Shown: positions 38,602 to 55,037 of the stretch, in pieces
Layout of the letters: every line of letters starts with the position of its first letter
Position numbering within the stretch: position 1 is the first letter of the stretch
Source: Candidatus Sodaliphilus aphodohippi
Lineage (GTDB): Bacteria; Bacteroidota; Bacteroidia; Bacteroidales; Muribaculaceae
Direction: 5' to 3'
Length of the DNA: 56,050 bases
Assembly (NCBI GenBank): GCA_018065665.1
Contig: JAGHSV010000034.1
Span: 1 to 56,050 of the forward strand
Translations under genes and position numbers: made by a program
Notes under the pieces: generated by a model
What the model was told of the DNA's origin: nothing
Database searches by the model: none
What the model saw: the letters and a program-made list of their open reading frames with translations, nothing else

Positions 38602-38618
38602 CAACACACCAAAAAGCA

Positions 38619-38693: not shown

Positions 38694-38779
38694 AGCAATT
38701 GATGTAAATAACCTATCAATTGTATTAAATCTAAGCACTGTAAATCAAATGGTTAAGGGTGATATTAGTTCAAACTCGT

Positions 38780-40195: not shown

Positions 40196-40235
40196 AATAA
40201 TAGATTTTATCTCTGTGCAAAATTATAAAAAATAG

Positions 40236-40311
40236 TTGAAATGCGAGCGGAATCTATGATTTTTTTGCACATTCCGCTCGAAACTGAGCATTTTTTTGTA
40301 AGAAATTGAAG
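40236..40311. repeat. Direct repeat R2 with internal palindrome, upstream of the ATPase promoter
   Basis: Second copy of 38619-38693; lies next to the TAATTTTG -7 element at 40218-40225 (minus strand). Confidence 0.92.
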
Positions 40312-40407
40312 GTATGGAGATGATATCTGGGTAATAAAACGTACAGGCGCCCCCGGGTTGCGGGAGCGCCTACGTTATGTAAGCTATTCGGAAAGTGTCG
40401 CTAGGGA

Positions 40408-41715
40408 TTAGTCGATTTCCTCGTCGGCCTCGTAACCGCCCATCTCGCGGATGGCGTTCTTCAGCATTACGTACTGCTGGAACAGGTGGTTAACGGGTAC
40501 CTCACCCTGGGTGTAGTCATGCTGCGGGCTCTTCAGGAAGAAGCTCAGGAAGCGCTGAGTGCCAACGCGGCCTGCACGTGCAGCGAGGTCCATCAACAGA
40601 CACAGGTCGAGGCAGAGGGGAGCTGCCAGGATAGAGTCACGGCAGAGGAAGTTGATCTTGATCTGCATGGGGTATCCCATCCAACCGAAGATGTCAATGT
40701 TGTCCCAACCCTCTTTGTTGTCGTTGCGGGGAGGATAGTAGTTGATGCGTACCTTGTGGTAGTAGTCGGTGTACAGGTCGGGCTGCTCGTCGGCAACGAG
40801 GATAGACTCGAGTGTAGAGAGCTTGCTGACCTCTTTTGTACGGAAGTTAGCGGGCTCGTCAAGTACAAGACCGTCGCGGTTACCAAGGATGTTGGTAGAG
40901 AACCAGCCGTTCAGACCGAGCATGCGAGTGCCGATGATGGGAGCGAAACCGCTCTTAACCAGTGTCTGGCCAGTCTTGAAGTCCTTACCGGCGATTGGCA
41001 TCTTAACCTCTTCGCAGAGTTCCCAGATAGCGGGGATGTCAACGGTAGTGTTGGGGGCACCCATGATGAAGGGAGCACCTTCGCGCAGAGCTGCGTAAGC
41101 GTAGCACATTGAGGGGGCGATGTTAGCGGTATCGTTGTCCTTCATTGCCTTCTCAAGGTCGGCCAACTTGTAGTGTACGTCCTTGTTGGGAGCTACATAA
41201 ATCTCGGTAGATGCTGCCCACAGAACAACAACTCGGTCAACGCCAGACTCTTTCTTGAAGTTGCGGATGTCCTCGCGAACCTGTTCCATCATGTCCCAGC
41301 GATCCTTGCAGGTCTTCACGTTGTCACCATCGAGGCGCTTTGCATAGTTCTTGTCAAAAGCGGCCTTGAGGGGCTTGATAGCCATGAGTTCGTCCTTAAC
41401 GGGGTTGATGTCCTTCTCTTTGAGTACCTCGGCGTTGATAGCGCTCTCGTAAGCGTTTGCGGGGTAAACGTCCCAAGCTGCGAAGACGATGTCCTTCAGG
41501 TCAGCGATGGGGGCGATGTCCTTATAGGGTAAATATTTCTTTTCGGCACCACGACCAACACGAATCTTGTCGTACTGAGTCATTGAGCCAACGGGTTTGG
41601 CGAGGCCTTTGCGGGTCATTAAAACACCTGTCATGAAAGTGGTGCTAACTGCACCGAGTCCAACAACCATAATACCGAGTTTTCCGGTAGCTGGTTTTAC
41701 GTTTGAATTTGCCAT
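40408..41715 (-). CDS. ino1: myo-inositol-1-phosphate synthase
   Basis: GLGAVSTT, VLWAASTE, GKDFKTGQT, NILGNRDG, DNKEGWD, CRDSILAAPL. Confidence 0.96.
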   Translation of the reverse strand: MANSNVKPATGKLGIMVVGLGAVSTTFMTGVLMTRKGLAKPVGSMTQYDKIRVGRGAEKKYLPYKDIAPIADLKDIVFAAWDVYPANAYESAINAEVLKEKDINPVKDELMAIKPLKAAFDKNYAKRLDGDNVKTCKDRWDMMEQVREDIRNFKKESGVDRVVVLWAASTEIYVAPNKDVHYKLADLEKAMKDNDTANIAPSMCYAYAALREGAPFIMGAPNTTVDIPAIWELCEEVKMPIAGKDFKTGQTLVKSGFAPIIGTRMLGLNGWFSTNILGNRDGLVLDEPANFRTKEVSKLSTLESILVADEQPDLYTDYYHKVRINYYPPRNDNKEGWDNIDIFGWMGYPMQIKINFLCRDSILAAPLCLDLCLLMDLAARAGRVGTQRFLSFFLKSPQHDYTQGEVPVNHLFQQYVMLKNAIREMGGYEADEEID

Positions 41716-41975
41716 AATAAAATTTTTAAATCTATTATATTGATAATTTTATGTTTTCTCCTTGTTCGGTTGAGAAATATTGTTCAAAGTTATATCCTTT
41801 TTTTGAACTACCAAAGCAAAAAAACACTCAAAAATGATAAAAGTACCTAAAAAATTGTGTTAATATGTAATTTGTGTTAAATTCGCCTTAAAATAACACT
41901 ACAATGTTAACATATATAAAAAGGGGTAAATGCGTTTTTCACCCTTTTTGGGGCATTTTTGTACTGTTTTGCGTG

Positions 41976-43406
41976 TCAATTCTGTTTGCTTGCCGGAAGG
42001 GCATCGATGAGCATGCGGCTCATGTTGTCCTTCAGCGTGCTACGCTCGCAACTGTAATTGTTGGCAAGAATAGCCCAAACCACCTGGGGCTTGTCGGCAG
42101 GATAGTAACCCACAAAACACTGTACGTCGCTCATGCTGCCCGACTTCAGTTTGATGCTGTCGCACAAGACATTGTTACCGAGTACCGACCCTATGCGACG
42201 ACCGGCGCTTGGCATGAGATCGCACAGGCGCAGGGAGTCGGTGCCATATTTGCGTTCAGCCATGTACCGCAGCATCTCGCAGAAGGTACGCACCGAGTTT
42301 TTGTTGGCTCGCGCAAGACCGCTACCGTCCAGCATAAACAAGGCCGAATCGTCAATGCCACGGTCGCGCAACATTTGCTTTACGGCATCGGCACCGGCAT
42401 AGTCAATGCCCATTTCGCCACGCTTGTATGAGCCCTGGCGTGACCCCACTGCACGCAGCAGGGCATGAGTGAACATGTTGTCACTGCGGTCCAGCAGAGA
42501 GGTGATGATGTCGGTAATCACTGGCGAATAGTGGCTCAGCAGGACCGCATGGTCACCTTCACCACTCTCGAAAGTCAACTCCCTGTTTTCAACCTTGATG
42601 CCGGCTTGCATCAGGGCTGCTTCGACCTCAGCCTTCAACATGAGGTCGGGACGCGGGTTGGCTATGGTATAGCTGTGGTTTCCGGGGTTGGTCTCACCGT
42701 AGAGGACGACAGCCGAGTGCCCGTAGTCGAGGCTTGCACTCCAGTTGTTGCGGCTACCGCTGTGCATCATGTTGGTTATCTCGACTCCCGGCACCTGGGG
42801 CGACAGCGTGAGATTGTTGATATTGCCCTGAGGGTCAACGTTGAATTTGACTGTAACCAGGTTGTCGCGGTAGTTAAGACCATGAACGCCCGCACCGTAG
42901 TCCTCGGCAATATCACCGATGTCCCACCAGCTGCTGTATGCGGGATAATTATAGAAAGATGCGTCAACGATAATCCGGCCCTGGATTTCGGTGATGCCGG
43001 CATTCCTTAACGAATCTATGATTTCGCCAATGATATTGTTTTTAGGGAAATACTGGCTGCCCAGTGTGGGGTCACCGTAGCCGGTGATAATGAGGTTACC
43101 CTTAAGTTTGTTCCCATCAATCTCGCCGATGGTGTGGACTACGGTCTCAAAACGGTAGTCCCCGCCCAGCAGTTCAAGGGCGGTGGTCGATGTCACGGTC
43201 TTCATTGTCGATGCCGTGATGACCGACAGGTCAGGGTTGTATGAGGCAATCACGTTGCCGCTGTCAATGCCCATAATCATCACACCCAACGACGCGTGAC
43301 GCATGGTGTTGTCCAGCGCAAAACGGTTAACGGCTTCCTGAGGGGTTATGCCCCATGCTGTAAATGCAATGGCAAACTGCAAGGCAAGCAATGCTATTTT
43401 CTTCAT
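41976..43406 (-). CDS. dacB: D-alanyl-D-alanine carboxypeptidase/endopeptidase (PBP4, S13)
   Basis: ASTMK (SxxK), GDPTLG, SDN (SxN), DGSGL, KSG; start MKKIALL at 43406. Confidence 0.92.
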   Translation of the reverse strand: MKKIALLALQFAIAFTAWGITPQEAVNRFALDNTMRHASLGVMIMGIDSGNVIASYNPDLSVITASTMKTVTSTTALELLGGDYRFETVVHTIGEIDGNKLKGNLIITGYGDPTLGSQYFPKNNIIGEIIDSLRNAGITEIQGRIIVDASFYNYPAYSSWWDIGDIAEDYGAGVHGLNYRDNLVTVKFNVDPQGNINNLTLSPQVPGVEITNMMHSGSRNNWSASLDYGHSAVVLYGETNPGNHSYTIANPRPDLMLKAEVEAALMQAGIKVENRELTFESGEGDHAVLLSHYSPVITDIITSLLDRSDNMFTHALLRAVGSRQGSYKRGEMGIDYAGADAVKQMLRDRGIDDSALFMLDGSGLARANKNSVRTFCEMLRYMAERKYGTDSLRLCDLMPSAGRRIGSVLGNNVLCDSIKLKSGSMSDVQCFVGYYPADKPQVVWAILANNYSCERSTLKDNMSRMLIDALPASKQN

Positions 43407-43413
43407 GTTGCTG

Positions 43414-44037
43414 TCAATATTTGATGGTGAATTCAACGAGGTTGGCGGCAATGCCGTCGGCAAGATTGATGAGCGAGCACAGCGGATAACGGTCGCGTGC
43501 CGTGTTCAGCGAGTTTTTCTCTTCGGGGCTCTGGAACGGCAGGTCCCATGCCGCCATGTGCCAGCGTATGGCAAGCAGGTCCTCCTTGGTGATGTCAAGA
43601 CCGCCCCACAGGGCCATCATGGCCGACTTCTCGCCATGCCCCAGCGGCAGGTTGCTGTAGTCGACGTCCCATCCGGGTTCTTCGGTCCAGATGCCGTTCA
43701 CCTTCACTTTCTTGATGGCTGGCACATAGATGTCGCTCTTGCAGATGTCATGCAGCAGCGACGCGATGATGACACTGTCGCGCGGCAGTTCGGGCTCGAG
43801 GTCGGGGCGCATCTTGATGGTTACCTCGCGCAGTTCGAGCGCGGCGTGGCACACGTTCAGCGAGTGCTGCAGCAGCCCGCCCTCCTCGTTCAGGTGGAAT
43901 CGGGTACTTGCCGGAGCGTTGAAAAAGCGGTTCTTACCATCATCAAGATACTCAATCAAGTCATCAACGCCCTCGCGTCCAGTCGACTTTAGCAGTTCAA
44001 TAAATTCCCTTTTGTTTGCTTCAATTTCGATTTTCAT
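43414..44037 (-). CDS. HD-domain protein (YhaM-like HD)
   Basis: APASTRFH...GGLLQHSLNV, LLHDICK, GHGEKS, AIRWHM. Confidence 0.85.
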   Translation of the reverse strand: MKIEIEANKREFIELLKSTGREGVDDLIEYLDDGKNRFFNAPASTRFHLNEEGGLLQHSLNVCHAALELREVTIKMRPDLEPELPRDSVIIASLLHDICKSDIYVPAIKKVKVNGIWTEEPGWDVDYSNLPLGHGEKSAMMALWGGLDITKEDLLAIRWHMAAWDLPFQSPEEKNSLNTARDRYPLCSLINLADGIAANLVEFTIKY

Positions 44038-44145
44038 ATTGGCAATAATAAGTTTATGTTTAATTCAACCCATGCATATCTAAATGCTGAATCCAAGTGA
44101 CAGAATGTAGTTGAACAAATCTGTCAGGTATTTTCTTTGTTGTTG

Positions 44146-44334
44146 TCATTGTGCACGACCATTTTCTTCCTTAACGCCAATCACGACATAACCACCAGTA
44201 TCTTCAAAGTCATTGGCAAAGGCACAGATTGTGCGATAGATGGTGTCAGGATTCCATCCTTCCTTGTAATCAAGTCTGTTGCTCTCCACTGCCTTGCCGT
44301 TGAGCAGGTCTTCTATATTAATGTGCAATGCCAT
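44146..44334 (-). pseudogene. Truncated AlbA_2/Schlafen-type DNA-binding domain gene remnant
   Basis: [25 protein letters not shown]...GGYVVIGV then stop at codon 63; this family is normally several hundred aa. Confidence 0.75.
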
Positions 44335-44380
44335 AATTTGTTTTTAACTATTTCTACACCACAGCTATATCGTCCAATTG

Positions 44381-44707
44381 TTATTGTTGTCGTTTGTTTT
44401 TTCGCCATTGTTCAAAGTGTCGGCGCTTTTCCAGGTAGTCAAGGTCGCGCTGGTGTCGGTATGCTTCGCGTTCAAACGAGATGTTGCGGTAGGCATTGCC
44501 GCGCATCAGCAACCGTACCAGCCACTCCAGCACATATATAACATAAAACGGCAGATAGCCCAGTTCGCGCATCTGAGCAGTGTGGATTCGTTCGTGGTTG
44601 ACAGCCTCGCTCGACAGGTAGGCACCCGAGCGCACCACCAGCACGCCCAGTACGTTCATGGCCAGAAAGCCTTTTAGCGGAAACCTGTTTGACCTGATAA
44701 TTTTCAC
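44381..44707 (-). CDS. Small conserved hypothetical protein with HExxH motif
   Basis: NHERIHTAQ, AYRNISFEREAY; GTG start at 44707 chosen because TAACTTTG lies at 44713-44720. Confidence 0.7.
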   Translation of the reverse strand: MKIIRSNRFPLKGFLAMNVLGVLVVRSGAYLSSEAVNHERIHTAQMRELGYLPFYVIYVLEWLVRLLMRGNAYRNISFEREAYRHQRDLDYLEKRRHFEQWRKNKRQQ

Positions 44708-44751
44708 GACTGCAAAGTTACTGATTTTTACTCTCCCGTGCAAGACAAGGG

Positions 44752-45288
44752 TTAGAGTTCCAGTATGCGAACCTCGGCGTTCTCCAGTGGTTTTACCATG
44801 CGTGGCGACAACCCGAAGTGGGCTGCAATCAGGTTGCGGGCAAACAGCCCGTGAGTGACGACTACGGCACTGTCGCCATGACAGGTTCGGGCAAGAGCCA
44901 GCAAGGCATCTTTGGCGCGTTGGTAAACAGCGTCCTCGGTCTCGACCGTGTCGGGCGGGAAGACCCATTCCCCGTCATGCAAAAAGCGTTCGCGAGCCTC
45001 GTCAATCGGCATCCCGTTAAATTCGCCCCAGTCGCGTTCACGCAGCAGCGGCATCGGCACAATCGGCAAATGCAGTTTGGAGGCAATGATGCCGGCCGAG
45101 TCAATTGCGCGTTTGAGGTCGCTCGAGATGATTTGGCTACATGCCGCTTTCATCTCTACAAGTCGCTTTGCGGCCTCGGCAACCTGTCTGCGCCCCTCGT
45201 CGGTGAGCGTGCCGGGCAGTTGCCCCTGCAGCACGTGACGGTGGTTCTCCTCGGTCTCGCCGTGGCGAACAATATACAGTGTCGCCAT
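44752..45288 (-). CDS. Histidine phosphatase family protein
   Basis: RHGET, SSDLKRA, LRERDWG, VTHG. Confidence 0.92.
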   Translation of the reverse strand: MATLYIVRHGETEENHRHVLQGQLPGTLTDEGRRQVAEAAKRLVEMKAACSQIISSDLKRAIDSAGIIASKLHLPIVPMPLLRERDWGEFNGMPIDEARERFLHDGEWVFPPDTVETEDAVYQRAKDALLALARTCHGDSAVVVTHGLFARNLIAAHFGLSPRMVKPLENAEVRILEL

Positions 45289-45290
45289 GA

Positions 45291-45815
45291 TTACTTGATC
45301 CAGTAAACGTAGTCGGCCTTGCGCGGAGGTGCTGCCACAGGCCCTTCCTGTGCGCTGTAACCCAGCACGCAGTGCCCTATGCCTTCATACTCGTCCTCGA
45401 TGCCCAGGCTGCGCAGTATCTCGCGTCCCTCGGTGCTCTCGAACTCCTCTTTGGCGCGATGAATCCAGCACGAACCAATGCCCAGGCTATGGGATGCCAG
45501 CATCAGGTTGCCCATCACCAGCGATCCGTCATAGATAAAGGTATTGACATCTTTCTTGGCAAGTACAATCAGTACGACGGGTGCGCCATAGAACGGGTCG
45601 GCAGTCGTGCCCAGCACGTCGGCATTCATGCGTGACAGACGGTCGCGCATCTCTTTGTTGGTAACTGCGATGATGATTGGGGCCTGGCGGTTGCGTCCTG
45701 TTGGGGCATAGGTGCCGGCCTTAACGATTTCTTCGATCAGTTCCTGTGGCACGGGGCGGTCGCTGAAGTTGCGAACGCTGCGGCGCGTAATCATGTTTTC
45801 AATAACGCTATTCAT
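45291..45815 (-). CDS. Nitroreductase family protein
   Basis: RRSVRNF, APTGRN.Q, LGIGSCWI. Confidence 0.92.
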   Translation of the reverse strand: MNSVIENMITRRSVRNFSDRPVPQELIEEIVKAGTYAPTGRNRQAPIIIAVTNKEMRDRLSRMNADVLGTTADPFYGAPVVLIVLAKKDVNTFIYDGSLVMGNLMLASHSLGIGSCWIHRAKEEFESTEGREILRSLGIEDEYEGIGHCVLGYSAQEGPVAAPPRKADYVYWIK

Positions 45816-45821
45816 AAATTA

Positions 45822-46454
45822 TTATTTGTTTTGGGTTTCGATAAAATCTTTCAGGGGTTGGAACCAGTCGGCCTGCTCGGTGACGTGGAACGAGGGGATG
45901 CCGACTGCACGTGCGCCCTCGATGTTGCGCATGCTGTCGTCGATAAAAATGGTCTCGCTGCGTTCCATGTTGCCCAATGCCAGTACTTTCTCGAAGATGG
46001 CGGCATCGGGTTTGTATTCGTGCAGTTCGTTGCTGCAGTACAGGGTGTCGAAGTAGTGATGGATGCTGTGGCCGTGTCCGTCAAAGTTGTCGCTGCGCGC
46101 CCAGTTCTGCACAAATGCGTTTGTGTTGCTGAGCATGCACACGTTGTAGCGTTCCTTGAACCACAGCAGGTGCTGCAGGCGTTCCAGCGGCACGTCGCGC
46201 ACAAATCCGAGCCAAGCGTTTTGCACTTCCTTATAAGTCAGCTGCCGGTGGCATTCCTGCTCCAGCTGGTCGATGAACTCATCCTCGGTGATTAGCCCTT
46301 TTTCCAGTTCAAGGAAAAAGCCGCGCTGCCCGTGGTCGCCGGTAAAGTCGCGTACGTTGACAAAACCCAGTTGCTCAAACCGTTTGATGGGTTCGCTGAG
46401 TGGATTTTGGCTGAAGATGACGCCACCGAAGTCAAACAATAGATTCTTTATCAT
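45822..46454 (-). CDS. HAD family phosphatase (YihX-like)
   Basis: FDFGGV, LSNTN, KPD..IF, FIDD. Confidence 0.9.
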   Translation of the reverse strand: MIKNLLFDFGGVIFSQNPLSEPIKRFEQLGFVNVRDFTGDHGQRGFFLELEKGLITEDEFIDQLEQECHRQLTYKEVQNAWLGFVRDVPLERLQHLLWFKERYNVCMLSNTNAFVQNWARSDNFDGHGHSIHHYFDTLYCSNELHEYKPDAAIFEKVLALGNMERSETIFIDDSMRNIEGARAVGIPSFHVTEQADWFQPLKDFIETQNK

Positions 46455-47128
46455 AACGAGTAATTGCTTATTTTGTGGCCAGAGGCGGCCTCAAAGTGAT
46501 ACTTTACAATGCCGAGGTCGACATGGGTATAGCCAACCAGCGAAAATCGCGCCGTGGCGGCAACTTTACCCGAGGGTTCCAACGTGAAACGGAACTTTTG
46601 CTGGTTGACGGCGGTTGGTGCCAGCAGGGCAGCCTTGACGCCATTGACAAACCACTCGGGGCTGTCGGCAGTGACGTTGCTCACGTCACCGGCTTTTTTG
46701 ATTTTGTGGGTAGTGCCGGCTGTGCTGCCGTAGCCGATTGAAATCACAGCCACAACTTTCTCGCCCTCGGCGAGGTTGAATGCACCGGGTATCTTGCTGT
46801 AGGTCAGCCCCACCCAACAGGTGTTGAGACCCATCATCTGTGCTTCGAGCACCAGGTGCTCGCCATAGTATCCGACACGCTCGTCCAGGTCTTCGCTGCG
46901 TTGTCCGGCCATGACGATGTAGTTGGTCACACCGCTGAACTTGCCGTAGCGCGCCATGCGGCACGGGGAAGCCTGCGGTTCGTTGGTGACCAGTTGGATG
47001 TGGAGGCGGCCATTGGCGTTGCAGCGGTCAATCTGCTGTTGCAGTGCGGATATAGTCGCGCCGTCCAGCGGTTTGCCGGTGTAACTGCGCACCGAGTGCC
47101 TCGATTCTATGGCTTCAAGCAGGGTCAT
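46451..47128 (-). CDS. Nitroreductase family protein (two-domain type)
   Basis: RHSVRSY, GLNTCWV, APTAVNQQ, DLGIVKYHFE; ATG at 47128. Confidence 0.88.
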   Translation of the reverse strand: MTLLEAIESRHSVRSYTGKPLDGATISALQQQIDRCNANGRLHIQLVTNEPQASPCRMARYGKFSGVTNYIVMAGQRSEDLDERVGYYGEHLVLEAQMMGLNTCWVGLTYSKIPGAFNLAEGEKVVAVISIGYGSTAGTTHKIKKAGDVSNVTADSPEWFVNGVKAALLAPTAVNQQKFRFTLEPSGKVAATARFSLVGYTHVDLGIVKYHFEAASGHKISNYSL

Positions 47129-47226
47129 GGGTTTACTTGCCAATTTTGATGAGTTTGTTTTTTTCCCGTTTTTAAATATCAAACAAATTTACAAATAATT
47201 TCCGACATGAGGGGATGATTACCGGG

Positions 47227-48360
47227 CTATAAAACATATTCAAGATAGTTTTGGGGAGTGACAACATGGGTTTCTCCGGGGTTGTAGGCATTGATGAACG
47301 ACACGGGTAGCGTTGTTTTTGCTTTTTTCGGATTCCATTTTAACTCAAAAGCCGCGATGTGGCCGTTCGCCTCTTCGATATAGTCAATCTCTTTTTTGTC
47401 GGTCGTTCGCCAGAAGTAGGAGTTGACTGCTCGGCCGGCATAGCGATTGGCCTTGATTCTTTCGGCTATAAAGAAATTTTCCCATAATGCCCCAGTATCC
47501 TGTCTGTATTCAAGGGGGGCAAAATTCCTGATGACGGCGTTACGGATGCCGTTATCATAGAAATATATCTTTTTGCCTTTTGTGAGCTCGGTCCTGATGT
47601 TACGGTTGTAGCTGTTCAGGGCAAACACAACATAGCATTTCTCAAGCAGGTCTATATATTTCTCAACAGTTTTCCTGTCAATACCGACGGTCTTTGCCAG
47701 CTCGTTGTACGAAACCACACTTCCAACCTGCAGCGCCAGTACCACAACCAGTTTGTTCAGTACCGACGTGCGTCGCAAGCCGTCTATCTCCAGAATGTCT
47801 TTGTATAGGTAGCTATCGGCAAGTTCGGTCAGCATCTCTTGCGGTTCGTCACCCAGTAAAACTGCTGGATATGAGCCATAAATCAATCGTGATTCAAACG
47901 TTTCATTAACCCCAATCAGACCCTGGTTGTCATAGATCTCCTTTGTTGAGAGAGGAAACAGGTGCAGAGTTGATTTTCGACCCGTCAACGGTTCGTTGAT
48001 GCGATTGCGCAGTTCAAAAGCCGATGAACCGGTAACAAGAAGGGTGACATCGGGCATATTGTCAACAATAAGCTTAAGTGTCAGGCCAATGTCATTCACC
48101 CTTTGCGCCTCGTCAATAACAACCGTCTTATTAGAGCCGATGAGCAACTCCAGATTGTGCAGGTTTGTGGTCTGTACTGCGTCGCGCACTTCTTGACGGT
48201 CACAGTTAAGCCACAAAACTTTTGCATCGTCGCTGGCAAATCGGTCAATATACTGATGCAGCAGGGTGGTTTTCCCCACTTGCCTTGCTCCAATCAGCAG
48301 AAGGGCTTTCCCGGGCTTTGCCTTTTGGCTGATTGTCATTAATAAATCTCGCTGAATCAT
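47227..48360 (-). CDS. AAA ATPase with DUF4143-type C-terminal domain
   Basis: GARQVGKT, IDEAQR, TGSS, EPLTGR, YFYDNG, GALWEN, YFWRT..KEID; ATG at 48360. Confidence 0.9.
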   Translation of the reverse strand: MIQRDLLMTISQKAKPGKALLLIGARQVGKTTLLHQYIDRFASDDAKVLWLNCDRQEVRDAVQTTNLHNLELLIGSNKTVVIDEAQRVNDIGLTLKLIVDNMPDVTLLVTGSSAFELRNRINEPLTGRKSTLHLFPLSTKEIYDNQGLIGVNETFESRLIYGSYPAVLLGDEPQEMLTELADSYLYKDILEIDGLRRTSVLNKLVVVLALQVGSVVSYNELAKTVGIDRKTVEKYIDLLEKCYVVFALNSYNRNIRTELTKGKKIYFYDNGIRNAVIRNFAPLEYRQDTGALWENFFIAERIKANRYAGRAVNSYFWRTTDKKEIDYIEEANGHIAAFELKWNPKKAKTTLPVSFINAYNPGETHVVTPQNYLEYVL

Positions 48361-48444
48361 AATTGAATCAATGAATTGTTTTTCGGTGGCAAAATTAGTG
48401 CTTTTATTTTGTTTAGCAAGCAAAAAAACAAGAATAATTTGCTC

Positions 48445-48510
48445 GAATTCCCAAAAATCACCAATATTTTGGGAATATAATCCCAAAAATCATTAATATT
48501 TTGGGAATTC
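48445..48510. repeat. Two tandem palindromic units upstream of the ATPase
   Basis: TCCCAAAAATCA-NN-AATATTTTGGGAAT present twice. Confidence 0.85.
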
Positions 48511-48566
48511 ATGGTCGATAGGCTATAGAAACTACATAGGTCTTATGCAGCCCTTATCTCTTCTTG

Positions 48567-48965
48567 TCAGTTGATGGAGATGAGGTGGATTTCGAAAATC
48601 AGGGTTGAGTAGGGCGGGATGCCGGGGCAGCCGCGTTTGCCGTAGGCTTTGTCCCAGGGGATGTAGACGGTCCACCGGTCGCCCTTGCGCATCTTGCACA
48701 GCGCTGCACTGAAACCGTTGATGAGGTCGGCAACGCGGAATGCCTCGGGGCAGTTGCGCTGCCACGAGTCGTCAAACACCTTGCCGCTGATGAGCGAGCC
48801 TCGATAGTGGCAGGTGACCACGCTGCGCATGTTGGCGGTTTTGTCGCCCTCGCCGTTTTCCTCGCCGCGGTAGTATATGCCGCCACCAATGAGTTCGACG
48901 CCTTCTTGCCGGGCGATGTCGGCCATGAACTGCTCGTTGCGGGCCTTATATTCCTCTTTGTTCAT
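48567..48965 (-). CDS. FKBP-type peptidyl-prolyl isomerase
   Basis: HYRGSLISGKVFD, LINGF, YIPWDKAYG, IPPYSTLIFEI. Confidence 0.93.
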   Translation of the reverse strand: MNKEEYKARNEQFMADIARQEGVELIGGGIYYRGEENGEGDKTANMRSVVTCHYRGSLISGKVFDDSWQRNCPEAFRVADLINGFSAALCKMRKGDRWTVYIPWDKAYGKRGCPGIPPYSTLIFEIHLISIN

Positions 48966-48967
48966 AG

Positions 48968-50035
48968 TTACTTGTATTGTCGGATGCGTACGTCAATCTG
49001 GTCGTTCTTCAGCAGCTCGGGAACCCGATTGATGTCGGTCTGGGCATAGTGGTAGGGGAAGAGCACCTTGGGTTTGACGATGCGGGCAGCATTGGCCACC
49101 TGCTCGGGAGTCATGGTGTAGGGCAGGTTGCACGGCAGGAATGCCACGTCGATGTCGTTGATGTCGGCCATCTCGGGGATGTTCTCGGTGTCGCCGGCTA
49201 TATAGATGCGCATGCCGTCGATGGTCAGCACAAAGCCGTTGTCGCGTCCCCGCGGGTGGAACTGCTGCTTGTCGGCACCGGTGTTGTAGGCCGGCACGGC
49301 GTCAATCTTGACGTCGCCGACAGTCAGCGAGTCGCCGTTGGCCATCACGGTGGCGTCGGTCACCCCTTTCAGCGCGGTGGCGCAGTTGGCATTGGCAACC
49401 AGTCGTGTGCCGTCCTTTGCCAGTTGTCTAACCGCGTTGGCGTCGAGGTGGTCGCCATGTTCATGGGTAATCAGGATTATGTCGGCACGGGGCATCGTGC
49501 TGTAGTCGGTAACCGGCTTGACGGCGGTGGTCACGGGATCGATATATATCCACTTGCCGTCGAAGTTGATAGAGAGCGTGCCGTGCTTGATGGCATCGAT
49601 ACGGACCAACTTTCCTCCCGGTGTGGCAAAGATGTCGGTCTCGATGGTGGTCACCGGCCGCTTGGCGTCGTTCCATCCGATGATGCCCGACTCCAGTTCT
49701 ACGATGTCGAAACCCCGCGCCGCCAGCACTTGGGCGGCTTTCTTGCTGCGTCTGCCGCTACGGCAGTACAGCGCGACTGTCTTGCCGGTGGGCAGTAGAG
49801 CCATGGCGCGTTTCTCAAAGTCGGTCTGCTTGACGTCGATGTTGATGGCGCCGTCAATGTGTCCCTCGGCATATTCCTCGGGGGTGCGCACGTCCAGCCT
49901 GACAATGTTGTTGTCGGCGATGGTTTTCTCGAACTCGGTAACGTCAACGCTCTTGAACGCCGCGTTTTGGGCATTGCAACCAACGAGGGCGCACAGCGAG
50001 GCAAACAGTCCCATAACCAGTATCCTTATTTTCAT
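48968..50035 (-). CDS. Rhodanese plus metallo-beta-lactamase-fold fusion, probably exported
   Basis: N-terminal LVGC signal; DVRTPEEY..GHI.GA and YCRSGRRS (rhodanese); THEHGDH, AGDT, PYHY (MBL). Confidence 0.88.
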   Translation of the reverse strand: MKIRILVMGLFASLCALVGCNAQNAAFKSVDVTEFEKTIADNNIVRLDVRTPEEYAEGHIDGAINIDVKQTDFEKRAMALLPTGKTVALYCRSGRRSKKAAQVLAARGFDIVELESGIIGWNDAKRPVTTIETDIFATPGGKLVRIDAIKHGTLSINFDGKWIYIDPVTTAVKPVTDYSTMPRADIILITHEHGDHLDANAVRQLAKDGTRLVANANCATALKGVTDATVMANGDSLTVGDVKIDAVPAYNTGADKQQFHPRGRDNGFVLTIDGMRIYIAGDTENIPEMADINDIDVAFLPCNLPYTMTPEQVANAARIVKPKVLFPYHYAQTDINRVPELLKNDQIDVRIRQYK

Positions 50036-50052
50036 ATTAGAATATTTAACTC

Positions 50053-50766
50053 TTACATATTGATGCAGTCGGGCACCTGGGTGATGGACGTGATCATGCA
50101 GGGATGGGTCTGGGCGTCTTCGTCTGCGGTCCAGCCTTTGCCTTTAATCCACAGCACCTTGCATCCGAGGCTCTCGGCAGGCACGATATCCTTGGTGATG
50201 CTGTCGCCAACGACAAGCACGTCGGCCGCCTCCATCTCGCGCGCGTCAACGCCCAGGCGGAACAGTGTGGGGTTGGGTTTGCGTACGCCCACAACGGCGC
50301 TCTCGATTACGCCCTTGAAATAGCGGCGAAGGTCAAAGTCGCGCAGCACGCTGTCGACGTTGCCATAGAAGTTGCTGACCAGCATCATCGGGTAGCGGCT
50401 GCTCAGGGTTTCCAGTATGGGGCGCGCCTCCTCGACACACTCGCGCGCGGCGTTATAGCAGTATTGTGCGATTGACTCGCAAAGCGACTGCGGAGCCTCG
50501 GCAATGATGCCGTTATCGACCAGGTTCCCCAGCTCGATGGCCATCTTCTTGCGCAGCAGGTCAAGGAACGTGTCGTTGGGCAGAATGTGCCTCACCCGCG
50601 CCAGTTCGCGCTCGGCAAAGACATAGCAGTCGCGGAACTGCTCCTTGGTGATGTTGACGCCGGCGTTGAGATAGCCCTTCCATATCACTTCGCTCCAGTG
50701 GACGGCGCGGCTGTCGATGGTGCCGCCGTAGTCAAAGATGATGCCCTTGATGTTGATTTTGTCCAT
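50053..50766 (-). CDS. HAD family hydrolase (inositol-lipid cluster)
   Basis: FDYGGTID, VSNFYGN, RKPNP, VGDSITKDI. Confidence 0.88.
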   Translation of the reverse strand: MDKINIKGIIFDYGGTIDSRAVHWSEVIWKGYLNAGVNITKEQFRDCYVFAERELARVRHILPNDTFLDLLRKKMAIELGNLVDNGIIAEAPQSLCESIAQYCYNAARECVEEARPILETLSSRYPMMLVSNFYGNVDSVLRDFDLRRYFKGVIESAVVGVRKPNPTLFRLGVDAREMEAADVLVVGDSITKDIVPAESLGCKVLWIKGKGWTADEDAQTHPCMITSITQVPDCINM

Positions 50767-50778
50767 ATCCTGATGTTG

Positions 50779-51738
50779 TCAAATTGTTTTCTTCATATCG
50801 GAGCAGATGTGCTCGTGACGTATCACCATGTAAACGAGCATGATATTGAGCACCACAAGTTCAAACACAAAGTAGAGCCAGGGCATCTTGATGATGACCG
50901 AGATGAACATGGCAATGATGCGGGTGTTGAACGAGAGCATGTTGGTGTACTTCATCAGCGGCAGGCTGCGTGCGCGGAAACGGTCGCGGAAGTCCTGTGC
51001 CACCCCGTCCTCGCCGTAGCGCTCGTGCAGCGCGGCGCGCAGTTGCTGCATGCGCGGTGTCAGGCGTTCCTGGCTGGCAGTATAACCGCGGTAGAAGAAC
51101 AGGGTGAACTTCTTGAAGAAGTCCTTGCCCCACGACAGCGTGTTGTAGGTCTCGGTCAGTTGGGTTGTGCTGTCGAGCTCGCTGCCGTCCTTGCCTTTGA
51201 GGAAGTACAGGTGGAACTGTCGGTAGTAGTCGGCCATGGCGGCTTGCTTGGCATGGCACAGCCCGGCAGCCACGGCAAGTGCCCAGATGGCCCACTGGTG
51301 CTGGCCAAAGTAGTTGCCAATCAGGTTGTCGCCAAAGTCGATTTCCCTCATCACGATGGCAATGTAGATGGCAATGAACCAGAAGTCGCCGCTGACGCCG
51401 TCCAGTATGCGCCCGATGCGTGAGTACTGCTGGGTAAGTCGCGCCAGCTGGCCGTCGGCGCTGTCGTAGGTGTTGGCCCAGATGATGAGGAAGATGCCCA
51501 GGTAGTTGAGCCACAGGTAGGGGCTTGCCCCAAAGTAGAGCAGAATGCCGCCACCGACGCCAAGAAATATTGACGCGATGGTCACCACGTTGGGGGATAT
51601 GCCCAGCTTGGCAAACAGTATTGCCCAGGCAAAGCCCAGCGGGCGGTAGAATGCAAGGTCGATGTGCTCCTCGGTGTCCATCGATTTGAGGGACGCCTTG
51701 TATTGTTGTTTTAAATCACTGAAAGCCATTTTCTTCAA
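50779..51738 (-). CDS. CDP-alcohol phosphatidyltransferase
   Basis: PNVVT and DSADGQLAR...SRIGRILDGVSGD signature; TM helices. Confidence 0.92.
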   Translation of the reverse strand: MKKMAFSDLKQQYKASLKSMDTEEHIDLAFYRPLGFAWAILFAKLGISPNVVTIASIFLGVGGGILLYFGASPYLWLNYLGIFLIIWANTYDSADGQLARLTQQYSRIGRILDGVSGDFWFIAIYIAIVMREIDFGDNLIGNYFGQHQWAIWALAVAAGLCHAKQAAMADYYRQFHLYFLKGKDGSELDSTTQLTETYNTLSWGKDFFKKFTLFFYRGYTASQERLTPRMQQLRAALHERYGEDGVAQDFRDRFRARSLPLMKYTNMLSFNTRIIAMFISVIIKMPWLYFVFELVVLNIMLVYMVIRHEHICSDMKKTI

Positions 51739-52607
51739 CCTTTGTTTTTGTATTCCTTGATGATTCCCAGAATGGCTTTTGCGATGTGTGGTGCAGCCTC
51801 GTTGCGGCAGGGCGCGAAACTGGGCCAGTCGTTGAAGTCGATGATGCGTATGCTGCCGTCCTCGGCAACGATGCAGTCTCCGCCATAAACAACGACGTTC
51901 AGTTCCTCGGCGGCGCGGTTGCAGATATCCTTGAGGTAGTCTTCGTCAAACTTGAAGCCCTTTGAGATGCCGTTGATTTGCTCCAGGCCATATTTGCTGT
52001 GGCCTTCGTCAAAGGGATAGAACCAGAAGAAGTAGGGCGAGCCCTTGATGCCGTAGAACTTGATGAGGTCGCCAACGAGGTGAACGTTGATGACGGCGCG
52101 GTTGATGCCGCGGTAGAAGTACTCCTGCAGCACTTCCTGTGCCTCCTCGGCGTGGCGGACATAGGACACGTCCTCCTTGTGCATGGCGTGGAAGTCGCCG
52201 CGTTTGATCCAGCAGCTCTGGAAGCCGGCTTCCTTGATGCGTTCCTTCACGTTCTCGTTGGTGTTGACGATGAGGCTGTCGGGGTATGGGATGCCGTTCC
52301 CCAGCAGTATGCGTGTCATGCGTTCGCGTGTGCAGTTCTCGATGCCGTAGCCCGAGTTGATGACGAGGCGGCCCTGGTCCTCCAGTTTCTGGAGGTTCTC
52401 GATTGACTCGCGCTCGCGGCACATGCTCAGTATGATGTTTTCTTCGACTCCGTTCTTGTTGAACTGTTCCTCGTTGTAGATGTTGACGAGGCATCCGCGC
52501 TTGCGCAGTTCGTCGGCAGTCGCGTTGAATATCGCGGTGTCGTTGCCGATGTGGTTGGGCGAATATGCGCCGGCTCTCATTATGCCGGCAATGGTGATTT
52601 CTGCCAT
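51735..52607 (-). CDS. Uncharacterised ATP-grasp fold protein
   Basis: GIPYP, WIKR, GDLIKFYG, YGGDCIV...IIDFNDWPSF; ATG at 52607; 4-nt overlap with the next gene. Confidence 0.7.
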   Translation of the reverse strand: MAEITIAGIMRAGAYSPNHIGNDTAIFNATADELRKRGCLVNIYNEEQFNKNGVEENIILSMCRERESIENLQKLEDQGRLVINSGYGIENCTRERMTRILLGNGIPYPDSLIVNTNENVKERIKEAGFQSCWIKRGDFHAMHKEDVSYVRHAEEAQEVLQEYFYRGINRAVINVHLVGDLIKFYGIKGSPYFFWFYPFDEGHSKYGLEQINGISKGFKFDEDYLKDICNRAAEELNVVVYGGDCIVAEDGSIRIIDFNDWPSFAPCRNEAAPHIAKAILGIIKEYKNKG

Positions 52608-52626
52608 AGTTGTATGCTGTATTTGG

Positions 52627-53328
52627 TTATTTCTCTTTAATGAATTCCTGTGCCACGGCGATATCGCTCGCGTGGTCAACGTCAATGATTTTGTCGATGG
52701 AGAACGCCTTGAGGTTGAAACCTGCCTCGACGAGTGCGCGCTGGAAGTTGCGCATGCGCGAGATGCCGTTCTCGATGCAGTGTTCCAGCACGGGGAACGC
52801 CTTGTCGCTCATGGCGTAGATGCCGCCCGACACATAGCGTGCGCCGGGGAATGCCGTGTCGTGGAATCCGGTGATTTTCATCTGTTCATCGACGCTGACA
52901 TAGAGGGGCTTCTCGTCCTCGATGAACGGGGTTACCGCCCACATGCCGTCGCTGCTGTCGTCGGCCTCGAAAGCCTCGATGTAGCGTGCGAAGTCGGGCT
53001 CGCGGAAGATGGTGTCGACTGTCGTGAGGCAGAACTTGCCGCGCGGCAGCACCTTGCTCAGTTCATAGAAACTGTGCATCGAGCTGGGTGTTGTCTTGAC
53101 CACCACCTTGAAGGGGATGCCCGGGTCGTATGCCTCGAGGGCTTCGCGCACCTCGGTCATGAACTCGTTGATGATGATGGTGACGCTCTGGGCGTTGCAC
53201 CGTTTGAAGATGTTGATGAGGCGTTTGACCATGGGCTCGCCGTTGAGTTCAACGAGCGGCTTTGGTTTGGCAACGCCTTCCTGTGCGAGTCTCGAGCCCT
53301 CGCCGGCTGCTATTATTGCGTAGTTCAT
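52627..53328 (-). CDS. NTP transferase (sugar/inositol-phosphate nucleotidyltransferase family)
   Basis: IIAAGEGSRL....PKPL, terminal DVD. Confidence 0.9.
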   Translation of the reverse strand: MNYAIIAAGEGSRLAQEGVAKPKPLVELNGEPMVKRLINIFKRCNAQSVTIIINEFMTEVREALEAYDPGIPFKVVVKTTPSSMHSFYELSKVLPRGKFCLTTVDTIFREPDFARYIEAFEADDSSDGMWAVTPFIEDEKPLYVSVDEQMKITGFHDTAFPGARYVSGGIYAMSDKAFPVLEHCIENGISRMRNFQRALVEAGFNLKAFSIDKIIDVDHASDIAVAQEFIKEK

Positions 53329-53346: not shown

Positions 53347-54453
53347 TTATGCATCCTTGGTCAAGTCGAGCACGACGTTGTCCTTGCCGCGGTCAAAGTA
53401 CATCTTCTTCAGCGGGTTGGCGTTCGCCTCGTCGTGGCGTTCGCGGTTGCGGCAGATGTCGATGGCGGTGTAGATTGCCTGTCGCAGCGAGTTCTCGTTG
53501 GCGACGTTCTGGCCCGCGATGTCATATCCGGTGCCGTGGTCGGGGCTGGTGCGCACGTATGGCAGTCCGGCGGTGAAGTTCACGCCGTTGTCCATCGACA
53601 GCGCCTTGAACGCCGTCAGGCCCTGATCGTGATACATCGCCAGCACACCGTCAAAGTGACGGTAACTCTCGCTGCCAAAGAACCCGTCGGCTGCAAAGGG
53701 ACCGAAGCACAGCAGGTGCTCATCGTCGTATGACTTCTGGATTGCAGGTGCAATCACGTCTTTCTCCTCGTTGCCCAGCAGACCGTTCTCGCCCGAGTGG
53801 GGATTCAGGGCCAGCACGGCGATGCGTGGACGGCCGATGCCGAAGTCGCGTTTCAGCGACTTGTTGAACAGGCGCAGTTTCTTGCGGATATTGTCCTCGG
53901 TGATGGCCGGTGCCACCTGTGCTATTGGCAGGTGGGTGGTCACGAGCGCCACACGCAGGCTGTCGTTGCACAGCACCATCAGGGCTTTGTCGCCCTCTTC
54001 GCCCAGGCATGTCTCGAGATACTCGGTGTGGCCCGGGAACTTGAACTCATCGCTCTGGATAGTCTCTTTGTTGATGGGTGCGGTCACCATCACGTCGATG
54101 CGACCGCTCTTCAGGTCACTCACGGCTGCCTCCAGAGCCTGGAATGCCGCCGCACCCGCCTGCTTGTCGGGCTGGCCGAGTTCAACCTTGATTTCGGCCT
54201 TGGGGTCTCCCACCTCGACCAGGTTGACGGCATTGTCGTTGAACGGCTTGTCAGTTCCAACGATGTGGACATTGAACTGCTGGATTTTGAGGGCTTTGCG
54301 ATGATATGCCATAATCTTGCTCGACCCATATACCACCGGGGTGCACAGTTCGCAAAACTCGGGGCATGAAAGTGTTTTCAATATCACTTCATAGCCAATT
54401 CCGTTGGTGTCCCCTTGGGTAATGCCAACGCGTATCTTTCTTTCTTTTGCCAT
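53347..54453 (-). CDS. pdxA: 4-hydroxythreonine-4-phosphate dehydrogenase
   Basis: GDTNGIG, TAPINK, GHTEYL, LNPHSGE, MYHDQG, RTSPDHGT. Confidence 0.96.
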   Translation of the reverse strand: MAKERKIRVGITQGDTNGIGYEVILKTLSCPEFCELCTPVVYGSSKIMAYHRKALKIQQFNVHIVGTDKPFNDNAVNLVEVGDPKAEIKVELGQPDKQAGAAAFQALEAAVSDLKSGRIDVMVTAPINKETIQSDEFKFPGHTEYLETCLGEEGDKALMVLCNDSLRVALVTTHLPIAQVAPAITEDNIRKKLRLFNKSLKRDFGIGRPRIAVLALNPHSGENGLLGNEEKDVIAPAIQKSYDDEHLLCFGPFAADGFFGSESYRHFDGVLAMYHDQGLTAFKALSMDNGVNFTAGLPYVRTSPDHGTGYDIAGQNVANENSLRQAIYTAIDICRNRERHDEANANPLKKMYFDRGKDNVVLDLTKDA

Positions 54454-54640
54454 TAGTTATCAGTTGTTTTAAGTTTTAGTGAGGAGACAATATCTCGCCA
54501 CATTAATAAATAATCTGCTAAATTACAAAAAAAATCCCGAACATCCAAAAACACCCCCGCCACATAATAACAGAAAAGGGGCGCTCGCCCCCCCATACGC
54601 CCCACTTTTTTGACCTCACGCAGTTGGAGAGCGCTTCAGA

Positions 54641-54791
54641 TGACTCAAGAGCCTCTCCCAACCCTCCCCTAAAGGGAAGGGCTAACTATGAGGGTGTTAC
54701 AGCAATTCAGGTGACTCAGGAGCCTCTCCCAACCCTCCCCTAAAGGGAAGGGCTAACTATGAGGGTGTTACATTGACTCGGATGACTCAGG
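54641..54791 (+). repeat. 71-bp-period tandem REP-like repeat (two copies plus partial)
   Basis: TGACTCA at 54641, 54712 and 54783; identical core AGCCTCTCCCAACCCTCCCCTAAAGGGAAGGGCTAACTATGAGGGTGTTACA twice. Confidence 0.92.
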
Positions 54792-54985
54792 TGGTTGGTT
54801 TTTGTTAGTATTATCGTTTTCATCATGCTGGCAAAGATAGTGGTTTGGGTTCGGGTGGGCGATTGTAACCGGTGGAGCATGGAAGCAACTCCGTCATCAC
54901 TCTGCTGTCTGCAAAAATCCCCGCAGGCCCTCAGACGAGTGCCTACGGGGTTATACAGATAGCGTCTTACAGACACAGTATCATC

Positions 54986-55036: not shown

Positions 55037-55037
55037 T

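What the first reader, a model, noticed from the sequence alone, without database searches (positions are those of the whole stretch)
40408..53328. Split 'alternative' inositol-lipid pathway: NTP transferase / ATP-grasp / CDP-alcohol transferase / HAD, with ino1 displaced about 8 kb
Seen: four tightly packed minus-strand genes (50053-53328) directly behind pdxA, and ino1 on the same strand at 40408-41715 with its own TAACTTTG element. Known: an alternative Bacteroidetes cluster of MIPS, NTP transferase, CDP-alcohol phosphatidyltransferase and HAD has been proposed for inositol lipid synthesis, distinct from the B. thetaiotaomicron BT_1522-1526 route. The logic resembles IPCT/DIPPS chemistry (Ins-P to CDP-inositol to transfer). 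Inference: this organism activates the head group rather than the lipid, making PI, inositol ceramide or a di-inositol-phosphate-like solute. The fusion to the pdxA transcription unit and separation from ino1 look like a rearranged variant.
Basis: partly seen in the sequence, partly recalled or inferred. Interest (0 to 1): 0.7.

Follow-up and report, generated by a model that had tools for sequence, protein, structure and literature searches.

The report
Inositol-lipid cassette hides candidate inositol kinase
These genes are an ordinary gut-bacterium copy of a published but still untested route predicted to build inositol-containing membrane lipids; the gap to the inositol-synthase gene is a minor local rearrangement, and the part worth testing is a constant ATP-grasp gene, absent from the text of the published scheme, that likely adds a phosphate to the inositol head group.

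Summary
Observation confirmed: pdxA–NTP transferase–ATP-grasp–CDP-alcohol transferase–HAD lie 5–19 nt apart on the minus strand; ino1 lies 8.3 kb downstream behind its own TTTG-N19-TAACTTTG promoter. The 'rearranged variant' reading adds little. pdxA linkage is the Muribaculaceae norm (60 of 71 loci). ino1 is detached in 27 of 72 same-contig genomes, has a -7 element in 21 of 41 loci even when adjacent, and is adjacent in the closest relatives, so this gap looks like a recent insertion. The cassette matches the untested 'alternative' cluster of Heaver 2022; head-group activation is plausible (transferase closest to AF2299/DIPPS; no BT_1523-type synthase found here). The under-described part is the ATP-grasp gene: in 117 of 120 family genomes, with ino1 in 33 of 34 Bacteroidales carriers, repeatedly fused to the NTP transferase, and unmentioned in that paper's text. 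It carries three ITPK-type rather than RimK-type residues but lacks two ITPK inositol-phosphate contacts, and overall profile and fold scores favour ligases as much. Best model (about 45%): a Kennedy-like kinase, cytidylyltransferase, transferase and phosphatase chain for inositol lipids. The transferase lacks the canonical catalytic Asp4. This scan reported the same cassette and kinase idea on at least eight other genomes.

The parts
53347..54453 (-). pdxA, housekeeping gene that heads the gene string; probably supplies the promoter, not part of the pathway
   Evidence: TIGR00557 374 bits over cut-off 290; adjacent to the NTP transferase in 60 of 71 related loci; absent beside the cassette in the 13 distant-class loci
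54518..54549 (-). candidate Bacteroidota promoter TTTG-N20-TAATTTAG (one mismatch) upstream of pdxA
   Evidence: relaxed pattern scan; function untested
52627..53328 (-). NTP transferase, 233 aa; predicted CTP:inositol-phosphate cytidylyltransferase
   Evidence: PF12804, PF00483; family profile hits RmlA E 1e-11, T. maritima IMPCT 4jd0 E 2e-10 over profile positions 4-223, LicC E 7e-8 (4JD0 = IMPCT per PMC12275187)
51735..52607 (-). unnamed ATP-grasp enzyme, 290 aa; candidate inositol(-phosphate) kinase
   Evidence: model pLDDT 96.6; ATP-grasp fold, RimK Z 21.4, ITPK1 Z 20.1; R94/K183/D257 align to ITPK residues, not RimK K/R/E; 117 of 120 family genomes; fused to the NTP transferase in 7 of the best 150 representatives and 3 of 19 order-level loci
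50779..51729 (-). CDP-alcohol phosphotransferase, 316 aa, with Gly at the canonical catalytic Asp4 position; predicted to move phosphoinositol from CDP-inositol to a lipid
   Evidence: PF01066; profile best hit AF2299 E 1e-14; fold best hit DIPPS 4mnd Z 16.0, rmsd 2.8 over 190 residues; G at D4 in 42 of 46 rows
50053..50766 (-). HAD hydrolase, 237 aa, motif I DxG instead of DxD; predicted phosphatase
   Evidence: PF13419/PF00702; FD[YF]G[GA]T motif in 41 of 49 homologues, the other 8 not matched by the pattern near their ORF start
41976..50035 (-). unrelated genes between HAD and ino1 (rhodanese/MBL, FKBP, AAA-DUF4143, two nitroreductases, second HAD, His phosphatase, HD protein, DacB); likely a recent insertion
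   Evidence: closest relatives L057, L058, L060, L061 (83-87% ATP-grasp identity) have ino1 right after the HAD
41785..41815 (-). ino1 promoter match TTTG-N19-TAACTTTG
40408..41715 (-). ino1, myo-inositol-phosphate synthase, 435 aa
   Evidence: PF07994 E 1e-99, PF01658 E 1e-30

Best explanation
These five genes likely form a head-group-activating route to inositol lipids, in which Ino1 is predicted to make inositol-3-phosphate, the ATP-grasp enzyme likely adds a phosphate to the inositol head group, the NTP transferase would make CDP-inositol(-phosphate), the membrane transferase would pass it to diacylglycerol or dihydroceramide, and the HAD would remove the spare phosphate. This is the logic of the Kennedy pathway (kinase, cytidylyltransferase, CDP-alcohol phosphotransferase). 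The kinase would either put the phosphate on another ring position than Ino1 does, or re-phosphorylate free inositol. Shown here: gene identities, order, conservation, fusions, folds and residue patterns. Inferred: every substrate and product. The pdxA link and the 8.3 kb gap to ino1 are incidental, because ino1 has its own promoter.
For: Cassette order NTP-ATP-grasp-transferase-(LPG-synthase TM)-HAD in 19 of 19 order-level loci fetched (19 of the 34 carriers); ino1 in 33 of 34 carriers among 251 Bacteroidales genomes, 10 weak ATP-grasp hits dropped; 5 of the 9 ino1 genomes without the ATP-grasp were tested and all 5 have a BT_1523-type synthase instead, 4 over cut-off. B. vulgatus and P. veroralis make PI-DHC without BT_1522/23/25 (PMC9246714). 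Transferase profile ranks soluble-CDP-donor enzymes (AF2299, CEPT1, CHPT1, DIPPS) above PIPS. ATP-grasp fused to the NTP transferase in 7 of 150 representatives and 3 of 19 loci, an architecture known for kinase plus nucleotidyltransferase pairs (recalled). Family profile hits ITPKs at E 2e-4 to 1e-3, ahead of RimK/LysX at E 0.07 or worse, behind PsnB at 1e-6. R94 (112 of 116), K183 (115 of 116) and D257 (114 of 116) align to ITPK R, K and D, where RimK/LysX have K, R and E in 12 of 12. ITPK1 phosphorylates I(3)P and I(1)P (PMC6900528). G617 (100% complete) has the whole cassette but no MIPS found, which fits a kinase that can salvage inositol. Neighbouring LPG-synthase-TM and MlaEFD genes in distant loci point to a lipid product.
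Against: Fold scores do not favour kinases: RimK/LysX Z 21.0-21.7 against ITPK1 20.1, and Foldseek's top rows are D-Ala-D-Ala ligases. Profile-profile E-values: RimK/LysX 2e-13, ITPK 8e-11, an uncharacterised bacterial D-x-N clade 2e-22; no inositol gene was seen among that clade's short flanks. ITPK His and Arg inositol-phosphate contacts (H151, R196 of A2) have no counterpart, and neither ITPK Pfam matches P0001. G120 and G138 keep the ATP-grasp gene intact although the other four genes were not found; G069 and G152 keep only the transferase. The published scheme needs no kinase. The transferase lacks Asp4, which is essential in PIP synthase (PMC4634129). An IMPCT-like best hit can use another substrate (CpgD, PMC12275187).
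Confidence: 0.45

Rival explanations
1. The published scheme is right as written (Ins-P to CDP-inositol to PI-DAG, HAD as PI-DHC synthase or phosphatase) and the ATP-grasp enzyme is a ligase that decorates the head group or lipid with an amino acid or other carboxylate.
For: Top fold matches are RimK, LysX/ArgX and Ddl; best single PDB sequence hit is the ligase PsnB; R64 aligns with the invariant RimK Arg53; distant clusters add an aminotransferase and a Gfo/Idh/MocA dehydrogenase (Pfam-confirmed in 7 of 7 tested loci), which could supply an amine acceptor; the gene survives alone in G120 and G138.
Against: RimK-invariant K87, R178, R192 and E247 are replaced; the minimal Bacteroidales cassette has no aminotransferase; fusion is to the nucleotidyltransferase; a quick tree separates the family plus ITPK from RimK (SH-aLRT 88, long-branch warning).
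Confidence: 0.27
2. The cassette makes a water-soluble di-myo-inositol-phosphate-like solute: CDP-inositol is condensed with an inositol phosphate and the HAD dephosphorylates the product.
For: Transferase is closest to DIPPS and AF2299, both of which use soluble acceptors; lipid-acceptor enzymes usually have extra C-terminal membrane helices (PMC4634129), and a hydropathy scan found only four clear hydrophobic peaks.
Against: Carriers of this cluster make PI-DHC without the BT genes (PMC9246714); no BT-type synthase found in this genome; LPG-synthase-TM and Mla genes ride with the cassette; the transferase has about 110 residues beyond the DIPPS core and lacks Asp4.
Confidence: 0.1
3. The NTP transferase activates a different phosphorylated alcohol (sugar-1-phosphate, choline- or glycerate-phosphate), and ino1 is only a frequent neighbour.
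For: Profile best hit is a glucose-1-phosphate thymidylyltransferase, with heptose and mannose transferases and LicC close behind; no NCBIfam family over cut-off; G617 lacks MIPS.
Against: ino1 in 33 of 34 carriers and in the same gene string across classes; no other inositol-lipid synthase found in this genome.
Confidence: 0.1
4. The ATP-grasp enzyme is a true ITPK that makes soluble inositol polyphosphates as signals, independent of the lipid genes.
For: ITPK-type R/K/D residues; Lokiarchaeal ITPK genes flank inositol-phosphate synthase genes (PMC6900528); orphan copies in G120 and G138.
Against: Lacks the His and Arg polyphosphate contacts; orphan copies are in genomes where MIPS was not found; fused to the NTP transferase and next to the membrane transferase in 74 of 75 loci.
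Confidence: 0.05

Closest known systems
Putative alternative inositol-lipid cluster of Bacteroides (Phocaeicola) vulgatus and Prevotella (Heaver et al. 2022, PMC9246714)
   Same: MIPS, NTP transferase, CDP-alcohol phosphatidyltransferase and HAD; MIPS sometimes detached; LPG-synthase-TM and carboxypeptidase-regulatory neighbours in relatives.
   Different: The paper's text, extended-data legends and 8 held supplement files do not mention an ATP-grasp gene (figures not seen). Its locus tags skip RS13100 between NTP transferase and transferase, where this gene would sit (inferred, not fetched). It does not treat Muribaculaceae in the searched text, nor the missing Asp4.
IPCT/DIPPS of hyperthermophiles and IPCT/BEPIS of Rhodothermus marinus
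   Same: MIPS plus nucleotidyltransferase plus CDP-alcohol phosphotransferase; DIPPS is the best fold match of the transferase; T. maritima IMPCT is a near full-length profile match of the NTP transferase.
   Different: Far below the IPCT-DIPPS family cut-off (39 bits against 580); Asp4 absent; extra ATP-grasp and HAD genes. BEPIS known to me only as cited in PMC4587543.
ITPK1 inositol-phosphate kinases (PF05770, PF17927; PDB 2QB5, 1Z2N, 7PUP)
   Same: ATP-grasp fold; R, K and D-x-N residues at three positions that separate ITPK from RimK; genomic link to inositol-phosphate synthase as in Lokiarchaea.
   Different: No Pfam match over cut-off; His and Arg substrate contacts missing; own long-branched clade; reported from eukaryotes and Asgard archaea in the passages read (PMC8024741, PMC6900528).
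RimK/LysX ATP-grasp ligases (TIGR00768)
   Same: Best fold scores and similar size.
   Different: 31 bits against cut-off 143; invariant K87, R178, R192 and E247 not kept.
B. thetaiotaomicron BT_1522-1526 PIP route
   Same: MIPS start point and inositol-lipid products.
   Different: Uses CDP-DAG and a BT_1523 synthase, which was not found in this genome and which was present in 5 of 5 tested ino1 genomes without the ATP-grasp gene.
Caulobacter Cpg ceramide-phosphoglycerate pathway (PMC12275187)
   Same: Precedent for a CDP-activated head group proposed to be moved onto a bacterial sphingolipid by an IMPCT-like cytidylyltransferase plus transferase.
   Different: Head group is glycerate, and the kinase there acts on ceramide.

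Membership tests
Heaver alternative inositol-lipid cluster | NTP transferase, CDP-alcohol phosphatidyltransferase and HAD clustered | tested here: met
   homology to the BVU proteins themselves was not run
Heaver alternative inositol-lipid cluster | MIPS in the genome, usually nearby | tested here: met
   ino1 8.3 kb away on the same contig
Heaver alternative inositol-lipid cluster | BT_1523-type synthase absent | tested here: met
   not found with NF052561, control rang in B. thetaiotaomicron; genome 87% complete
Heaver alternative inositol-lipid cluster | organism makes PI-DAG or PI-DHC | not testable with these tools
   needs lipid analysis
IPCT (CTP:inositol-1-phosphate cytidylyltransferase) | closer to IPCT than to sugar-1-phosphate or choline-phosphate transferases | tested here: inconclusive
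   RmlA 1e-11, IMPCT 2e-10, heptose 3e-10, LicC 7e-8, AfIPCT 7e-7; NF041135 39 bits against 580
Class I CDP-alcohol phosphotransferase | D1xxD2G1xxAR...G2xxxD3 | tested here: met
   invariant in 46 of 46 except A96/R97 also 46 of 46
Class I CDP-alcohol phosphotransferase | catalytic base D4 four residues after D3 | tested here: not met
   G in 42, E in 2, T in 1, D in 1 of 46; D or N one residue later in 44 of 46
ITPK1 kinases | ATP-grasp fold | tested here: met
   Z 20.1, rmsd 3.2 over 263 residues to 2qb5
ITPK1 kinases | PF05770 and PF17927 over cut-off | tested here: not met
   P0001 no hit; 5 of 116 members reach E 0.1 or better, best 0.0036
ITPK1 kinases | Arg, Lys and D-x-N at the ATP/metal site positions | tested here: met
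   R94, K183, D244, D257, N259; the D in my ITPK set is fixed by the search pattern, but the PDB ITPKs show it independently
ITPK1 kinases | His and Arg inositol-phosphate contacts (human H167, R212 per PMC6900528) | tested here: not met
   Asp146 and an aromatic stretch align there; mapping rests on a low-identity profile alignment
ITPK1 kinases | kinase activity on an inositol phosphate | not testable with these tools
   needs assay
RimK/LysX ligases | TIGR00768 over cut-off and DK / DIR / E-x-N motifs | tested here: not met
HAD phosphatase | motif I DxD | tested here: not met
   DxG (DYGGT) in this protein and 41 of 49 homologues; active DxG HADs such as YihX exist (recalled)

The most novel reading that the evidence does not exclude
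The ATP-grasp gene is the first bacterial ITPK-type inositol(-phosphate) kinase, and with the nucleotidyltransferase and an Asp4-less transferase it forms a full Kennedy-type pathway that gives gut Bacteroidales their inositol lipids, allows salvage of host or dietary inositol where MIPS is missing, and in distant Bacteroidota is extended by a dehydrogenase and an aminotransferase to an amino-inositol lipid.
Probability: 0.4. Interest if true: 0.75.

Novelty: new member of a known kind. Interest (0 to 1): 0.5.

Why it matters
The alternative route is the predicted source of inositol lipids and sphingolipids in Prevotella, B. vulgatus and, by this survey, nearly all Muribaculaceae sampled, yet none of its enzymes has been assayed in the papers found. 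A constant fifth gene changes the pathway to be tested. If it is a kinase, it would extend ATP-grasp inositol kinases to bacteria and offer a candidate for the missing inositol kinase of inositol-salvaging Bacteroidales (the gap is stated for T. forsythia in PMC4587543; that species was not tested here). The split arrangement in this genome matters little by itself.

Tried and rejected
Rearranged-variant reading: rejected. One search used an off-frame query, so its family-level misses were not used. PF05770 in the own genome: nothing rang, controls included, so uninformative. ESM Atlas: only same-family clusters, one with RimK on 16% of members. Foldseek on the transferase: no match at E 0.001 or better; best rows AF2299. 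Tree of 47 ATP-grasp rows: only the quick tree finished, with a long-branch warning; not used for ancestry. Flanks of the bacterial D-x-N clade (1.2 kb or less): MFS transporters, no inositol genes. No RNA holder listed. DNA contigs of related strains cover the region but none spans it; one bridges ino1-dacB, so the assembly of the whole gap is not independently confirmed. Complex prediction of NTP transferase with ATP-grasp was not available, so binding is open. Literature: ten searches listed no paper that assigns this ATP-grasp family or assays the alternative cluster; (ATP-grasp, inositol, Bacteroid, lipid, cytidylyltransferase) returned 0. Most subscription papers are outside the library. 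Heaver supplements: 8 held files, 0 hits; figures and any unheld tables could show the gene. Sphingolipid capacity (SPT) of this genome and the T. forsythia genome were not tested.
Full report
Observation. On the minus strand run pdxA (53347-54453), an NTP transferase (52627-53328), a 290-aa protein without a Pfam match (51735-52607), a CDP-alcohol phosphotransferase (50779-51729) and a HAD (50053-50766), with gaps of 18, 19, 5 and 12 nt. ino1 (40408-41715) lies 8,337 bp further on, behind nine unrelated Pfam-identified genes and two short ORFs. A full TTTG-N19-TAACTTTG match sits at 41785-41815; such matches number 10 in the window against 0.42 expected. Named relatives place the organism in Muribaculaceae, near Sodaliphilus.

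The arrangement is ordinary. Among 80 related loci, pdxA precedes the NTP transferase in 60 of 71 with enough flank, the NTP transferase is adjacent in 66 of 77, the transferase in 74 of 75, and ino1 follows the HAD within 1 kb in 31 of 49. Of 115 family genomes with both ATP-grasp and ino1, 45 have ino1 directly downstream, 21 have it 2.6-12 kb downstream, 6 elsewhere on the contig and 43 on another contig, which is partly assembly breakage. The closest relatives (83-87% identity) have ino1 adjacent, so the gap here looks recent. Even when adjacent, ino1 has a TAnnTTTG within 300 bp upstream in 21 of 41 loci, against 0-2 of 61-79 at the inner junctions, so detaching it likely costs nothing. 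In one Sodaliphilus group the cassette splits differently, with NTP transferase and HAD elsewhere in 4 of 5 genomes tested. Heaver et al. already note detached MIPS (PMC9246714; passages, abstract, extended-data legends and 8 supplement files seen).

Known cluster. That paper proposes MIPS, NTP transferase, CDP-alcohol phosphatidyltransferase and HAD as an unconfirmed CDP-inositol route and shows PI-DHC in B. vulgatus and P. veroralis, which lack BT_1522/23/25. This genome (87% complete) has two PF01066 genes, PssA and the cassette transferase, and no BT_1523-type synthase was found. Among 251 Bacteroidales genomes, 34 have a strong ATP-grasp family match (10 weak matches dropped) and 33 of them have ino1; 9 ino1 genomes lack it, and 5 of 5 of those tested carry a BT_1523-type synthase. 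All 19 order-level loci fetched keep NTP-ATP-grasp-transferase-(LPG-synthase TM)-HAD. Thirteen loci from other classes keep the same core, with ino1 in 12, and most add MlaEFD, a class III aminotransferase and a Gfo/Idh/MocA dehydrogenase.

Head-group activation. The transferase profile ranks AF2299 (E 1e-14), CEPT1, CHPT1 and DIPPS above PIP synthases, and its model (pLDDT 94) fits DIPPS best (Z 16.0, rmsd 2.8, 190 residues; PIPS 14.1). AF2299 and DIPPS take soluble CDP donors (PMC4634129, passages). The family has Gly where Asp4 should be (42 of 46) and Asp or Asn one residue later; Asp4 is essential in PIP synthase, so the mechanism must differ or use another base. The NTP transferase cannot be assigned from sequence: RmlA, T. 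maritima IMPCT, heptose transferases and LicC all score within four orders of magnitude, and the IMPCT-like CpgD uses phosphoglycerate (PMC12275187, passages). Its link to inositol rests on gene context.

The ATP-grasp gene. It is in 117 of 120 family genomes and has 1,020 relatives among 50%-identity representatives. Seven of the best 150 are fusions to the NTP transferase (9 long ones scanned), and 3 of 19 order-level loci encode such a fusion. The words ATP-grasp, RimK and kinase were not found where searched in the paper or its preprint. The model (pLDDT 96.6) is an ATP-grasp fold with RimK/LysX at Z 21.0-21.7 and ITPK1 at 20.1. The family profile hits PsnB (1e-6), then ITPKs (2e-4 to 1e-3), then ligases (0.04 or worse). 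To compare residues I built sets of 12 ITPKs and 12 uncharacterised D-x-N ATP-grasp proteins from a metagenome pattern scan and 12 RimK/LysX proteins. Overall E-values were 8e-11, 2e-22 and 2e-13, so overall likeness does not pick the kinase. At three positions, however, R94, K183 and D257 match ITPK R, K and D, whereas RimK/LysX have K, R and E in 12 of 12. The ITPK His and Arg whose spacing matches human H167 and R212, the conserved inositol-phosphate contacts (PMC6900528, passages), are missing. That fits a kinase for a lightly phosphorylated substrate, or a different chemistry altogether. A quick tree gives the family its own long branch on the ITPK side of RimK (SH-aLRT 88), with a long-branch warning.

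Losses cut both ways. G617 (100% complete) has the whole cassette and no MIPS found, as expected if the kinase can salvage inositol; T. forsythia uses outside inositol with no known kinase (PMC4587543, passages), but I did not test that genome. Against a strict coupling, G120 and G138 (92% and 95% complete) keep only the ATP-grasp gene beside pdxA, and G069 and G152 keep only the transferase.

Mechanism and odds. Most likely (0.45): Ino1 makes Ins3P; the ATP-grasp enzyme phosphorylates the head group; the NTP transferase makes CDP-inositol(-P); the transferase moves it to DAG or dihydroceramide; the HAD removes the spare phosphate. One reason for such a step would be to attach the lipid through a different ring carbon than Ino1's phosphate allows (inference from known stereochemistry). 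Rivals: published scheme with a decorating ligase (0.27), DIP-like solute (0.1), another head group (0.1), soluble polyphosphate signalling (0.05). An inositol-lipid role for the cassette as a whole I put near 0.75.

Novelty. The locus is a new member of a published, untested cluster; the split is not notable. The ATP-grasp component, the Asp4-less transferase and the extended amino-inositol-like clusters were not found in ten literature searches (listings only, except the papers named). Passages of PMC8024741 and bioRxiv 2026.05.08.723234 place ITPK in eukaryotes and Asgard archaea. This scan had reached the same reading on at least eight other genomes; those notes are not independent support, and my odds were stated before I opened them.

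Noticed in passing
window 38476-38690 and 40235-40464: The AAA ATPase gene (38780-40195) is flanked by duplicated DNA: a second copy of the ino1 3' end plus its downstream hairpin, and a ~70-bp repeat. A contig of a related strain skips 38682-40301, so this gene is a variable insertion just behind ino1.
   Followed up: partly
L137-L149 (for example L137:2964-13371): In other Bacteroidota classes the cassette includes MlaEFD, a class III aminotransferase, a Gfo/Idh/MocA dehydrogenase and sometimes two tandem ATP-grasp paralogues or a second CDP-alcohol transferase; this suggests an amino-inositol lipid.
   Followed up: partly
family-wide: 30 of 40 Muribaculaceae genomes show only two PF01066 genes and 10 show three; in this genome the two are PssA and the cassette transferase, so no separate PgsA-like gene was found. 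The inositol route may supply the main anionic lipid (inference).
   Followed up: partly
L035:8730-9644 and L278:8399-9346: G138 and G120 keep an intact ATP-grasp gene between pdxA and yceD although NTP transferase, transferase, HAD and MIPS were not found.
   Followed up: partly
L297:7721-8695 and L298:7766-8698: G069 and G152 keep only the transferase, with altered D1 motifs (DCCDG, DCTDG).
   Followed up: partly
L165, L168, L170-L173, L189, L191, L204, L217: Bacterial-looking ATP-grasp proteins with an ITPK-like D-x-N-x-F-P-G motif score over the PF05770 cut-off in most cases and often sit before an MFS transporter; they are the closest profile match to this family.
   Followed up: partly
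window 54590-55040: Palindromic repeat copies (AGCC/GGCTCTCCCAACCCTCCCCTAAAGGGAAGGGCTAAC type) upstream of pdxA, with high depth and length variants in other runs; looks like a REP-type element.
   Followed up: no
window 44146-44334: 62-aa ORF that looks like the start of an AlbA/Schlafen-type DNA-binding protein, apparently truncated (label recalled, not scanned).
   Followed up: no
P0227 (cluster 8): A 691-aa protein joins a PAS histidine kinase to the ATP-grasp domain; the cluster also holds 425- and 268-aa members, so it may be a read-through or a strain-level fusion.
   Followed up: no
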